Origin: a virus
Lineage: Duplodnaviria; Heunggongvirae; Uroviricota; Caudoviricetes
Direction: 5' to 3' (one strand)
DNA: 64,000 nt
IMG/VR virus record: IMGVR_UViG_2913147268_000005
Below, one piece after another: positions 12,001-15,000 of the stretch (positions are counted from its first letter, which is position 1; each line of letters opens with the position of its first letter). The position numbers are program-made.

Positions 12001-15000
12001 AAAGCGCGGTTAACGACTGACCCCGTCAGCGGGCGGCGTGCGCGGTGTTCCGGTTTGACTCCGTGACCGTTTACACCGCGCACCCACCGCCCGATTTTTT
12101 CAGGAGTGAACCCCATGAGTATGGTTGCCAGAACTAACCCCGGCCCCGCAGAGGACGACATCACCGACACCGATGATGGCGATACCCGTATTTCAGCGGG
12201 TGCATTCTGGCCGGATATTGTGCTGCGCGAGCTGCGTCTGGCGGTACGACTGCCGGGCCGCGTGACCACCTCCCGCCTGCTGCATACCGCCACCGGGGCC
12301 ATAGCACACGTTACCCGCGAGCTGGAAGCATGGCAGCAGGAACAACAGGCGGCTGGCTATCAGACGCTGGCCGATGTTCCGGCCCCTGTAATTAACGGAG
12401 AAAGCGTCAATCTCTGGCACTGGCGCAATGCTGTTTATACCGCCACACGCGCCCTGATTCTGGAGCGTTACCGCGATGCGGACACAACGGACAAGGGCGA
12501 CCGCCGGGCGGACGCACTGGATATACAGACATCGGATTTGTGGCGCGATGTGAGCTGGGCCATCTCTGACATTCTGGGACGACCGCGAATGTTTGCGGAG
12601 CTGTGCTGATGAAAGTGAAGGCACTGGAAGGCGACACCGTGGATTCGCTCTGTTTCCGGTACTACGGCACGACACAGGGCGTCACCGAAAAGGTGCTGGA
12701 TGCCAACCCCGGACTCTGTCAGCAGGTATTTCTGGACGCCGGGCAGGAAGTGGAGATGCCGGAGCCGGAGAAGAAGAAACGAGAAATGATTCAGTTGTGG
12801 GGGGAGTAGCAGTGAGCACCATTCAAACAGGGATCACAGAGCAGGTTATTGCGTGGCTCTTTGACCACCTGCCAACGGTGTATGCAGTAGGCGCGGCGGT
12901 CAGCATTTCCGCGCTGATGAGTCTTTATGACGGACGAACACTGGTTCAGACCGTAACGGGATCGCTGGCGTGCGGCGTTCTTGCCATGGCCGTGGCCGGG
13001 TCGCTGCGCTTCTTCGGGATCCCTGAGGATGCAGTGACGTTTTTTGGTGCCTCAATCGGTTTTATGGGCGCAGAGAAAGCACGCGACAAGGTTATTGCAA
13101 TATTTGATCGCAGGGTGAAGGAGAGGAACGAATGAGCAACACATTTAAATTCAGCAGCCGGAGCGAAAAGAATTTGCAGGGTGTAAATCCTGATCTGGTG
13201 AAAGTGACCCGACGGGCGCTGGAAATCTCGGAAGTGGATTTTGGTATCACCGAAGGATTGCGCAGTCGTTATCGTCAGAAGCAGCTCGTGACCACAGGCA
13301 AGAGCCAGACCATGAACAGTCGCCATCTCACAGGGCATGCCGTGGATGTTGTGGCTTATGTCGGCAACCAGGTGTCATGGGAATGGCCGCTGTACGAAAA
13401 AATCGCAGCAGCATTCAGACAGGCCAGCCAGGAACTGAATATTCCGGTGGAATGGGGCGGCGACTGGAAGACCCTGAAAGACGGACCGCATTTTCAGTTA
13501 CCACACGGAGCCTATCCGGCATGAAGCTCTGGCCCACGCTTGGCGTCGCTTTCCTTCTGATTACATCCATGCGTCTGTCGTGGTCGCTGGGCCGGGAGAA
13601 CGCCAGAAACGAAGCGCAGGCCAGCACCCTGAAAAGTACCGTCGACACACTGAATATCATCAGCGCCGGGGTACAGGATATGCAGCAGGTGCTGGCTCAG
13701 CTCCGCGCGGAAAATCAGCAACGCAATCAGGACGGAGAGGTAAGACGTGAACAGCTACGCAACGATATTGCAAAAGATGAATGCGCCCACGCTTTGCCTG
13801 ACGCTCGTTTTACTGACAGGTTGCGCAGGCACGCAGAACGCGCCAGGGCCAGCGCCGTCAGTCCGGCTTATACCGCAGACGCTGACCATGCCGGTAACGC
13901 CTCCCCCCTTCCCTGACCCACCCACATGGGGAAACCTCGGAATATGGGGCGACCGCCTTCTGGATGCACTGGAAACCTGTAACGCGGATAAACGGGCCAT
14001 TGCTGAACTGGATAAGAGAATAGCCGAACTGACACACCAGACGGGAGTAACACAATGACCAGTAAGAACTTTGCACTGATTACAGCCATGACACAGGCTG
14101 AACTGACTCAAAAGGTGAATGAACATCTTGCGAAAGGGTGGCATCTTCAGGGGGAGACGCGGGTTGCCTACGAACCCGGCACCCCGTGGTATCTAATGCA
14201 GGCAATGGTGGCCGATGGCACTACAGACATCTCACCTGATTCCCCCCAGCACGGCAGCGTGCCGGAGTGGTATTACGTGGTGGTACTTGCTGGTCAATCC
14301 AATGCCATGTCATATGGTGAGGGAATGCCGCTGCCGGATTCTTACGATGCGCCCCACCCACGCATTAAGCAACTGGCCCGTCGCAACACAGTGACTCCCG
14401 GTGGTAAAGCATGCGCATTTAACGACATCATTCCGGCAGACCACTGCCTGCATGATGTTCAGGATATGAGCGCACTGAATCACCCGAATGCAGACCTGAG
14501 CAAAGGGCAGTATGGCTGTGTCGGACAGGGCTTGCATATTGCCAAACGCCTGTTGCCTTACATTCCACAGAATGCCGGGATTTTACTGGTTCCATGCTGT
14601 CGTGGTGGTTCGGCATTCACCCAGGGCGCGGAGGGGACATTCAGCGAGTCCACAGGAGCCAGTCAGGATTCGGCTCGCTGGGGTGTGGGTAAACCTTTAT
14701 ATCAGGACCTGATTTTGCGCACGAAGGCCGCATTGCAGAAAAACCCAAAAAACATGCTGCTGGCCGTATGCTGGATGCAGGGCGAATTTGACATGAGCGC
14801 CGCTACGTACTCACAGCAACCTCCGCTGTTTACGGCCATGCTGAAACAGTTTCGTGCGGACATTACCGAGTTTAACACGCAGTGTCATGGAGGCAGAGCG
14901 GCAAGTGTGCCATGGATTTGTGGTGACACGACGTATTACTGGAAAAACACCTACGGCACGCAGTACGACACCATTTACGGGGCGTACAAAAACAGGGAGA

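What the first reader, a model, noticed from the sequence alone, without database searches (positions are those of the whole stretch)
12811..14058. Non-canonical lysis cassette in a P2-like late operon
The slot after gpX holds a 3-TM holin candidate, an M15-type peptidase endolysin (SRHLTGHAVD) instead of a lysozyme, and an overlapping i-spanin/o-spanin pair with the lipoprotein in the +1 frame. All junctions are ATGA-type overlaps, indicating a translationally coupled module acquired as a unit.
Basis: partly seen in the sequence, partly recalled or inferred. Interest (0 to 1): 0.4.

Follow-up and report, generated by a model that had tools for sequence, protein, structure and literature searches.

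The report
Standard P88-type prophage lysis cassette
This is the ordinary, already annotated cell-lysis gene set (holin, cell-wall peptidase, two membrane-fusing spanins) of a common P2-related E. coli prophage. It is real and probably functional, but it is not new.

Summary
The four genes are real. They are a lambda-S-family holin (12812-13135), a soluble zinc M15C L-Ala-D-Glu endopeptidase (13132-13524), an inner-membrane spanin (13521-13916) and an overlapping +1-frame lipoprotein spanin (13747/13777-14058). They follow gpX in a P2-type late operon. Holin and endolysin are unrelated to P2 gpY and gpK, and lysA is missing. The spanin pair, however, is the P2 LysB/LysC type. The cassette is not unusual: it is 100% identical to prophages of ST131 E. 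coli, about 95% identical to phage P88 (Xuanwuvirus, Peduoviridae), and present in 1050 of 5426 complete E. coli genomes, where PGAP already names the genes. The endolysin is 61% identical to the crystallised Serratia enzyme ChiX, and all catalytic residues are conserved. "All junctions ATGA" holds for three junctions only. "Acquired as a unit" is not supported: a sister phage swaps only the endolysin, more distant P2-like prophages swap only the spanins, and an esterase moron has replaced the 3' end of lysC. GC content matches the flanks. Outside the finding, the operon breaks off at 15301/15302 against an antisense lambdoid tail gene; this is most likely an assembly join. Verdict: already known, low interest.

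The parts
12609..12809 (+). gpX (tail protein X). This is the gene upstream of the cassette; its ATG shares one base with the gpL stop (TGATG).
   Evidence: PF05489 E 8e-21; 48% identical to P2 gpX.
12812..13135 (+). Holin, 107 aa, lambda-S family (class I, three predicted transmembrane segments). GTG start preceded by the Shine-Dalgarno sequence GGGGGAG. No dual-start motif.
   Evidence: PF05106 E 4e-19, 69 bits against a cut-off of 23.8. phrog_126 E 1e-34. TIGR01594 scores 51.2 bits, below its 55.05 cut-off. 23% identity to lambda S, in register, E 4e-5. Hydropathy. No similarity to P2 gpY.
13132..13524 (+). [quoted passage not shown] Predicted zinc ligands are H65, D72 and H120, the catalytic residue is D117 and the substrate-binding residue is R44. 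It has no signal or SAR sequence. Its ATG overlaps the holin stop (ATGA).
   Evidence: PF13539 E 4e-12. phrog_465 E 4e-76. PDB 5opz ChiX E 7e-48, 61% identity; 23ri 62% identity; 8q2g; T5 endolysin 2mxz E 6e-22. ChiX residues are taken from PMC5778951. No hydrophobic segment. Against P88 there are 15 synonymous and 4 non-synonymous codon differences.
13318..13347 (+). The SRHLTGHAVD motif (aa 63-72), which carries zinc ligands H65 and D72.
   Evidence: Sequence read; residue mapping onto ChiX H68/D75.
13521..13916 (+). i-spanin, 131 aa (annotated 'DUF2570' by PGAP). It has an N-terminal membrane anchor and a periplasmic helical domain. Its ATG overlaps the endolysin stop (ATGA).
   Evidence: phrog_214 Rz-like spanin E 1.5e-39, with weak hits to phrog_89, the P2 LysB family. 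PF10828 at E 0.0016, below its cut-off. Transmembrane segment at aa 1-23.
13747..14058 (+). o-spanin (LysC-type lipoprotein), in the +1 frame relative to the i-spanin. It overlaps the last 140-170 nt of the i-spanin gene and runs 142 nt beyond it. The likely start is GTG 13747 (Shine-Dalgarno GGAGAGG); ATG 13777 is the alternative. The lipobox LTGC lies at 13813-13824, with Ala at +2, which predicts outer-membrane sorting.
   Evidence: PF23793 LysC E 1e-13. phrog_3001 and phrog_456. 34% identical to P2 LysC, E 7e-7. Sequence context.
14055..15301 (+). Moron fused to the cassette by an ATGA overlap: a DUF1737 + SASA carbohydrate esterase (NanS-p-like). Only the first 1247 of 1878 nt are present here. 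It is intact (625 aa, DUF6645) and followed by gpR/gpS in JJ1887.
   Evidence: PF08410 and PF03629. phrog_143 matches only positions 1-421 of 634. JJ1887 annotation. Breakpoint analysis.

Best explanation
This is the lysis cassette of a P88-like (Xuanwuvirus, Peduoviridae) prophage of E. coli. It is transcribed late as part of the gpO-N-M-L-X operon.

The proposed mechanism rests on homology throughout; no step is shown experimentally here.
1. The lambda-S-family holin accumulates in the inner membrane and, at a set time, forms large holes.
2. The soluble 130-aa zinc endopeptidase has no export signal. It escapes through these holes and cuts the L-Ala-D-Glu bond of the peptidoglycan stem peptides.
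3. Once the peptidoglycan mesh is gone, the inner-membrane i-spanin and the outer-membrane lipoprotein o-spanin, already joined across the periplasm, fuse the two membranes and the cell bursts.

Tight gene packing (three ATGA overlaps) allows translational coupling.

Compared with P2, the holin and endolysin have been replaced by unrelated families and lysA is absent, while the LysB/LysC-type overlapped spanin pair is retained. The cassette is a gene-by-gene mosaic, which is usual for phage lysis modules.
For: - Family and structure matches for every gene.
- All five ChiX functional residues are conserved.
- The endolysin has no hydrophobic segment, the holin has three, the i-spanin has an N-terminal transmembrane segment, and the o-spanin has a lipobox.
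- The cassette is 100% identical over window 1-15301 to the JJ1887 prophage, where it lies between gpX and gpR/gpS in an otherwise complete P2-type gene order.
- It is 95% identical to isolated phage P88 and its relatives.
- It is present in 1050 of 5426 complete E. coli genomes.
- Codon differences from P88 indicate purifying selection on the endolysin: 15 synonymous against 4 non-synonymous.
- There is no convincing + strand terminator inside the operon.
- P2 comparison.
- Mosaicism.
Against: - Nothing here is experimental. Lysis timing, enzyme specificity and spanin function all rest on homology.
- The holin falls just below the NCBIfam lambda-holin equivalog cut-off (51.2 against 55.05 bits) and has no dual-start antiholin motif, so its regulation may differ from that of lambda S.
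- i-spanin homology to P2 LysB is only marginal.
- In this window the operon is interrupted 1.2 kb downstream. If that join is real, this copy sits in a defective prophage.
Confidence: 0.9

Rival explanations
1. The four genes entered a P2-like genome together, as one recently acquired, translationally coupled foreign module.
For: Holin and endolysin are both non-P2 families, they sit next to each other and they are joined by an ATGA overlap. The holin + M15 pair also occurs together in more distant P2-like prophages: L011, L013 and L017 have the holin at 56-58% and the endolysin at 71-74% identity.
Against: - The spanins are P2-type (LysC homologous).
- The endolysin alone is exchanged in Shae_phiSM, between a conserved holin and a conserved i-spanin.
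- The spanins alone differ in L011, L013 and L017.
- A recombination boundary lies inside lysC.
- GC and GC3 match the flanks.
- The cassette is conserved across the whole Xuanwuvirus genus, so any replacement is old.
Confidence: 0.07
2. The cassette acts as a non-lytic or sub-population protein-release system, like the type 10 secretion system ChiWXYZ. Its cargo would be the sialate O-acetylesterase encoded immediately downstream.
For: - The endolysin is 61% identical to ChiX.
- ChiWXYZ is likewise a lambda-S-family holin, an M15 endopeptidase and spanins (PMC4259817).
- In the intact prophage the esterase gene is joined to lysC by an ATGA overlap.
- The holin has a single start, as ChiW does.
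Against: - The genes sit inside a phage late operon, between the capsid/tail gene gpX and the tail genes gpR/gpS.
- P88 and most relatives lack the esterase.
- Isolated virulent-cycle phages carry the same cassette, and there ordinary lysis is the obvious role.
- In this window the esterase is truncated.
Confidence: 0.03
3. The cassette belongs to a truncated, dead prophage remnant (the 15301/15302 join is real) and is a decaying relic.
For: In the window the late operon stops inside the esterase gene and abuts an antisense, truncated lambdoid gpL. No P2-type tail genes are present anywhere in the 64 kb.
Against: - All cassette ORFs are intact and 100% identical to those of intact prophages.
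- No complete E. coli genome has the join.
- An independent partial phage assembly ends 4 nt from the same point.
- The window carries N runs and many 54-58-bp exact repeats typical of a draft assembly.
Together these indicate that the join is most likely an assembly artefact.
Confidence: 0.1

Closest known systems
Lysis cassette of Escherichia phage P88 and other Xuanwuvirus (Peduoviridae). This includes ST131 prophages such as that of JJ1887, and phages vB_EcoM-569R5 and vB_EcoM-705R2.
   Same: The gene order is the same: gpL-gpX-holin-M15 endolysin-i-spanin/o-spanin. Nucleotide identity is 95% to P88 and 100% to the ST131 prophages and to 569R5/705R2.
   Different: P88 lacks the esterase moron. 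Its LysC has a different C-terminal ~20 aa (81% aa identity overall), and its i-spanin has a 4-aa indel. LysC is not annotated in the P88 and Shae_phiSM records.
Phage P2 lysis genes Y-K-lysA-lysB-lysC
   Same: The position in the late operon, directly after gpX, is the same. So is the overlapped (not embedded) spanin architecture. LysC is homologous (34% identity, E 7e-7; PF23793; phrog_456). gpL and gpX are homologous at 39% and 48%.
   Different: The holin belongs to another family (PF05106/phrog_126 versus PF04550/phrog_175). The endolysin is an M15 peptidase, whereas gpK is a lambda-R-type transglycosylase (55% identical to lambda R). There is no lysA. The i-spanin is only marginally related to LysB.
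Phage lambda S-R-Rz-Rz1
   Same: The holin is in the same Pfam family as lambda S, with in-register similarity across TM1-TM3. The logic is the same three steps: holin, soluble endolysin, spanin.
   Different: - Identity to lambda S is only 23%.
- There is no S107/S105 dual start.
- The endolysin is a peptidase, not a transglycosylase.
- The o-spanin gene is overlapped rather than embedded.
A true lambdoid cassette (P21-type holin, Rz with embedded Rz1) lies elsewhere in the same window at 30465-33048 on the minus strand.
Serratia marcescens ChiWXYZ (holin/endopeptidase-dependent chitinase secretion, 'type 10 secretion')
   Same: The endolysin is 61% identical to ChiX, whose crystal structure (5opz) and L-Ala-D-Glu endopeptidase activity are established. 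H68/D75/H123, D120 and R47 are all conserved. ChiW is also a lambda-S-family, single-start holin, and spanin-like genes follow.
   Different: ChiWXYZ lies in a chromosomal chitin-utilisation locus with no phage genes, and it serves protein secretion. Here the cassette is inside a phage late operon. The ChiW, ChiY and ChiZ sequences were not compared here.
T5 and RB49/Phi1-type phage L-alanoyl-D-glutamate peptidases (M15C endolysins)
   Same: They share the fold family and active-site motif. Matches are T5 endolysin 2mxz at E 6e-22 and Phi1 at 62% identity. Homologues occur in 1252 phage records.
   Different: Those phages are virulent, with different holins and different gene contexts.

Membership tests
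Xuanwuvirus (P88-like) lysis cassette | High nucleotide identity and the same gene order gpL-gpX-holin-M15-spanins | tested here: met
   95% identity to P88 over 1403 nt, 100% to the ST131 prophages, and identical annotated gene order.
LAS / peptidase M15C L-Ala-D-Glu endopeptidase (ChiX, T5 endolysin) | Profile match above the curated threshold | tested here: met
   PF13539 scores 47 bits against a cut-off of 25. phmmer to ChiX gives E 7e-48.
LAS / peptidase M15C L-Ala-D-Glu endopeptidase (ChiX, T5 endolysin) | His-Asp-His zinc ligands, the catalytic Asp and the substrate-binding Arg | tested here: met
   H65, D72, H120, D117 and R44 align with ChiX H68, D75, H123, D120 and R47.
LAS / peptidase M15C L-Ala-D-Glu endopeptidase (ChiX, T5 endolysin) | Zinc-dependent cleavage of the L-Ala-D-Glu bond of peptidoglycan | not testable with these tools
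   This needs purified protein and muropeptide analysis.
Canonical (holin-dependent) soluble endolysin | No signal peptide or signal-anchor-release (SAR) segment | tested here: met
   No 15-residue window exceeds a Kyte-Doolittle hydropathy of 1.2.
Lambda S holin family (PF05106 / TIGR01594) | Profile match above the curated threshold | tested here: inconclusive
   The Pfam threshold is met (69.2 against 23.8 bits). The NCBIfam equivalog threshold is not met (51.2 against 55.05 bits).
Lambda S holin family (PF05106 / TIGR01594) | Three transmembrane segments in about 105 aa with a charged C-terminal tail | tested here: met
   Hydrophobic segments lie at about aa 20-40, 43-71 and 73-88, and the tail is KARDKVIAIFDRRVKERNE. 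The third segment is borderline (1.21).
Lambda S holin family (PF05106 / TIGR01594) | Dual-start (holin/antiholin) motif | tested here: not met
   There is a single GTG start. The next in-frame Met is residue 36, and no Lys/Arg lies between alternative starts.
P2 gpK / lambda R transglycosylase endolysin | Sequence or profile similarity | tested here: not met
   blastp gives E 3.6 over 6 aa. The PHROGs differ, 465 versus 90.
P2 gpY holin (PF04550) | Sequence or profile similarity | tested here: not met
   There is no blastp hit, and the window holin does not hit PF04550.
Two-component spanin, overlapped architecture (P2 LysB/LysC type) | i-spanin with an N-terminal transmembrane anchor; o-spanin with a lipobox Cys and no Asp at +2 | tested here: met
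   The i-spanin has a transmembrane segment at aa 1-23. The o-spanin has LLTGC followed by Ala.
Two-component spanin, overlapped architecture (P2 LysB/LysC type) | The o-spanin gene starts inside the i-spanin gene in the +1 frame and extends beyond its stop | tested here: met
   The i-spanin gene is 13521-13916 (frame 0). The o-spanin gene is 13747/13777-14058 (frame +1).
Two-component spanin, overlapped architecture (P2 LysB/LysC type) | Homology to P2 LysC and LysB | tested here: inconclusive
   LysC homology is met (E 7e-7, PF23793, phrog_456). For LysB there are only weak reciprocal PHROG cross-hits (0.0034 and 2e-4), and blastp is not significant.
Type 10 secretion system (ChiWXYZ-like) | Non-phage chromosomal locus linked to cargo genes; non-lytic secretion | tested here: not met
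   The cassette lies between gpX and gpR/gpS of a prophage. The secretion phenotype cannot be tested here.

The most novel reading that the evidence does not exclude
The P88-type cassette (lambda-S-family single-start holin plus a ChiX-like M15 endopeptidase plus spanins) could be the phage lineage from which enterobacterial holin/endopeptidase secretion systems (ChiWXYZ, 'T10SS') were domesticated. In ST131 prophages it could also double as a lysis-dependent release device for the esterase whose gene overlaps the lysC stop (ATGA).
Probability: 0.1. Interest if true: 0.35.

Novelty: already known. Interest (0 to 1): 0.08.

Why it matters
It matters little for discovery. The cassette is common, already annotated, and of a well-understood kind.

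It has some practical value:
- It shows that the 'DUF2570' protein of these prophages is the i-spanin.
- It shows that LysC is missing from the P88 and Shae_phiSM records, and that the PGAP start for LysC in JJ1887 is implausible.
- It documents gene-level mosaicism of lysis modules within one phage genus.
- It points to a small, soluble M15 endolysin that is 61% identical to structurally solved enzymes.

Tried and rejected
- Rfam scan of 9000-16000: no RNA family.
- Promoter/terminator scan: nothing above shuffled expectation, and no internal + strand terminator of note.
- GC and GC3 per gene: the cassette (0.53-0.59) does not differ from the flanking late genes, so there is no compositional sign of recent import.
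- NCBIfam: no model hits the endolysin or the spanins, and the holin falls below its cut-off.
- Literature: full-text searches found no paper on the P88/Xuanwuvirus lysis genes or on M15 endolysins in P2-like phages.
- Exact search for the 15301/15302 join in GTDB representative genomes: no hit.
- The search for related loci did not return Serratia. ChiW, ChiY and ChiZ therefore could not be compared directly with the holin and spanins.
- Inversion or homologous recombination between the two esterase paralogs as an explanation of the join: rejected, because the partner sequence at the join is gpL, not the paralog, and only 2 nt of microhomology exist.
- The antisense 130-aa ORF 12946-13338 and the other overlapping ORFs were treated as spurious. 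They were not searched against any protein family.

Full report
**1. What is at the coordinates**

ORF listing and direct reading show a gap-free run of + strand genes after the P2-type late genes.

- The late genes are capsid gpN (10115-11167), terminase gpM (11213-12013), head completion gpL (12106-12609) and gpX (12609-12809). All have strong Pfam matches.
- The holin follows at 12812-13135. It has a GTG start with the Shine-Dalgarno sequence GGGGGAG five bases upstream.
- The endolysin is at 13132-13524 and the i-spanin at 13521-13916.
- The o-spanin is in the +1 frame, 13747 or 13777 to 14058.
- A fifth gene (14055 onward) encodes a DUF1737 + SASA esterase.

The junctions are as follows:

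| Junction | Form |
|---|---|
| gpL/gpX | TGATG |
| gpX/holin | TAG-ca-GTG (no overlap) |
| holin/endolysin | ATGA |
| endolysin/i-spanin | ATGA |
| o-spanin/esterase | ATGA |

So "all junctions ATGA" is true for three junctions.

**2. Identity of each gene**

*Holin.*
- It matches PF05106 (Phage_holin_3_1, the lambda S family) at E 4e-19 and phrog_126 at E 1e-34.
- It scores just under the NCBIfam lambda-holin equivalog cut-off.
- It aligns in register with lambda S at 23% identity, E 4e-5.
- It has three hydrophobic segments and a charged tail.
- It has no dual-start motif.

*Endolysin.*
- It matches PF13539 Peptidase_M15_4 and phrog_465 at E 4e-76.
- Against solved structures it matches Serratia ChiX (5opz) at E 7e-48 with 61% identity.
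- It also matches an M15C protein (23ri, 62% identity), an L-Ala-D-Glu endopeptidase (8q2g) and the T5 endolysin (2mxz, E 6e-22).
- The ChiX paper (PMC5778951) gives zinc ligands H68/D75/H123, catalytic D120 and R47. These correspond to H65/D72/H120, D117 and R44 here, and all are conserved.
- The protein has no hydrophobic segment, so it needs the holin to reach the cell wall.

*i-spanin.* It matches phrog_214 (Rz-like) at E 1.5e-39 and has an N-terminal transmembrane segment.

*o-spanin.* It matches PF23793 LysC at E 1e-13. It has the lipobox LLTGC with Ala at +2 and a proline-rich mature part.

**3.

P2 Y, K, lysA, lysB and lysC were fetched and compared.

- Holin versus gpY: no similarity; PF05106 versus PF04550; phrog_126 versus phrog_175.
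- Endolysin versus gpK: none (E 3.6). gpK is 55% identical to the lambda R transglycosylase.
- lysA: there is no counterpart in the window.
- i-spanin versus LysB: only weak reciprocal PHROG cross-hits.
- o-spanin versus LysC: 34% identity, E 7e-7, the same Pfam family and a shared PHROG.

The spanin genes have the P2-style overlapped layout. So the holin and endolysin are non-P2, while the spanins are P2-type.

**4. It is a known, common cassette**

- Megablast finds it 100% identical in phages vB_EcoM-569R5 and vB_EcoM-705R2. It is about 95% identical in P88 and other Xuanwuvirus (Peduoviridae).
- It occurs in 1050 of 5426 complete E. coli genomes, and 251 records are at least 99% identical.
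- PGAP annotates it as 'phage holin family protein / M15 family metallopeptidase / DUF2570 / Rz1-like lysis system protein LysC'.
- Window 1-15301 is 100% identical to the ST131 strain JJ1887 prophage. There the cassette is followed by a 625-aa esterase and then gpR, gpS, gpV, gpW, gpJ, gpI and the tail fibre genes.
- M15 endolysins of this family occur in 1252 phage records.

**5. Was it acquired as a unit?**

The evidence argues against this.

- Citrobacter phage Shae_phiSM (the same genus) keeps the holin (89% aa) and the i-spanin (89% aa). Between them it carries a GH108 + PG_binding_3 enzyme instead of the M15 one.
- Among 77 loci from other species that encode relatives of the endolysin, only three P2-like prophages share both holin (56-58%) and endolysin (71-74%). 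These are Enterobacter soli, Dryocola and Citrobacter NCU1. Their spanins are unrelated.
- Homologues at 60-80% identity in Mixta, Citrobacter braakii, Klebsiella, Burkholderia and Yersinia sit beside other holins and other spanins, including lambda-type embedded Rz/Rz1.
- Relative to P88, the esterase insertion replaced 93 nt. This changed the last ~20 aa of LysC and the first codons of gpR.
- GC and GC3 are the same as in the flanking genes.

**6. Mechanism**

The best reading is the standard three-step lysis of Gram-negative hosts:
1. The holin forms holes in the inner membrane.
2. The soluble L-Ala-D-Glu endopeptidase is released and degrades the cell wall.
3. The spanins fuse the inner and outer membranes.

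The genes would be expressed from the P2-type late operon, in which no convincing internal + strand terminator was found. Every step is inferred from homology.

The closest experimentally characterised relative of the enzyme is ChiX. It belongs to the Serratia chiWXYZ secretion locus, which also has a lambda-S-family single-start holin and spanin-like genes (PMC4259817). That resemblance leaves a low-probability alternative in which the cassette also serves protein release.

**7. Outside the finding**

The P88-like sequence stops at 15301, inside the esterase gene. It is joined, with 2 nt of microhomology, to an antisense, truncated lambdoid gpL.

- No complete E. coli genome spans this join.
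- In strain 4/1-1 the two parts lie 507 kb apart.
- An independent partial phage assembly (ON470599) ends 4 nt from the same point.
- The block 15302-33939 is a lambdoid prophage collinear with ST131-type genomes.
- The far end of that block again falls inside an esterase paralog that is full-length in the reference.
- The window also holds N runs and many 54-58-bp exact repeats.

The join is therefore most likely an assembly or concatenation artefact, not biology. The native context of the cassette is an intact prophage.

**8. Verdict**

It overstates the unusualness of the cassette, and "acquired as a unit" is not supported. The feature is already known and of low interest.

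Noticed in passing
window 15301/15302 (context 14055-15910): The P88-like prophage ends abruptly inside the esterase gene (nt 1247 of 1878). It is joined, with 2-nt microhomology, to an antisense, truncated lambdoid minor tail gene L. No complete E. coli genome contains the join, and an independent partial phage record (ON470599) ends 4 nt from the same position. It is probably a contig-end or assembly artefact.
   Followed up: partly
window 33126-33939 (-) and 15234-15301 (+): The 3' part of a second NanS-p-like esterase paralog (DUF6645) lies upstream of the lambdoid lysis genes. It is cut at 33939, although it is full-length (617 aa) in the reference strain AR_451. Its first 68 bp form a 97% inverted repeat with the last 68 bp of the first esterase fragment.
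   Followed up: partly
window 30465-33048 (-): A second, lambdoid lysis cassette of a different type lies here: a P21-type class II holin (PF04971), DUF1327/YdfR, a lysozyme (partly masked by N), Rz (PF03245) and an embedded Rz1 (PF06085).
   Followed up: partly
window 31806-32045, 33237-33246, 47406-47415, 59234-59471; repeats between 34790 and 48561: There are four runs of N. The 10-N run at 33237 is flanked by a 103-bp direct duplication. Many 54-58-bp exact repeats link short segments between 34.8 and 48.6 kb. This part of the window looks like a patchwork from a short-read draft assembly.
   Followed up: no
window 14055-15301; L001 15456-17333: In ST131 prophages a DUF1737 + SASA + DUF6645 esterase (625 aa, NanS-p-like) is inserted as a moron between lysC and gpR, with its start overlapping the lysC stop (ATGA). 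P88 lacks it. The insertion rewrote the C-terminus of LysC and the N-terminus of gpR.
   Followed up: partly
L002 (P88) 7160-7480; L004 (Shae_phiSM) about 2860-3180; L001 15199-15459: The o-spanin LysC is present but not annotated in the P88 and Shae_phiSM records. In JJ1887, PGAP starts it at a CTG only 8 codons before the lipobox Cys, which gives an implausibly short signal peptide. GTG 13747 (window), preceded by the Shine-Dalgarno sequence GGAGAGG, is the better start.
   Followed up: partly
window 34041-34229 (-): A Hok/Gef-family small toxin gene (PF01848, E 2e-7) lies next to the truncated esterase paralog. A 159-bp fragment at 34239-34397 is 100% identical to a tail-fibre pseudogene of the JJ1887 P88-like prophage.
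   Followed up: no
window 22591-23196 (-), inside ORF 22137-24722: There are three to four tandem copies of a 162-bp unit (88-91% identical) inside an 861-aa ORF in the head-gene region of the lambdoid prophage.
   Followed up: no
window 2299-3577 (+): The P88-like prophage carries ParM-type plasmid segregation and partition genes (annotated as such in the identical JJ1887 prophage) between the replication gene and the portal/terminase genes.
   Followed up: no
L067 (Yersinia massiliensis) 3604-4914: A lambda-S-like holin, an M15 endopeptidase (45% identical to the window enzyme) and a spanin pair sit next to a fimbrial-type gene, with no phage structural genes among the ORFs listed within about 1.5 kb upstream and 1.9 kb downstream. 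This could be a ChiWXYZ-like domesticated cassette.
   Followed up: no
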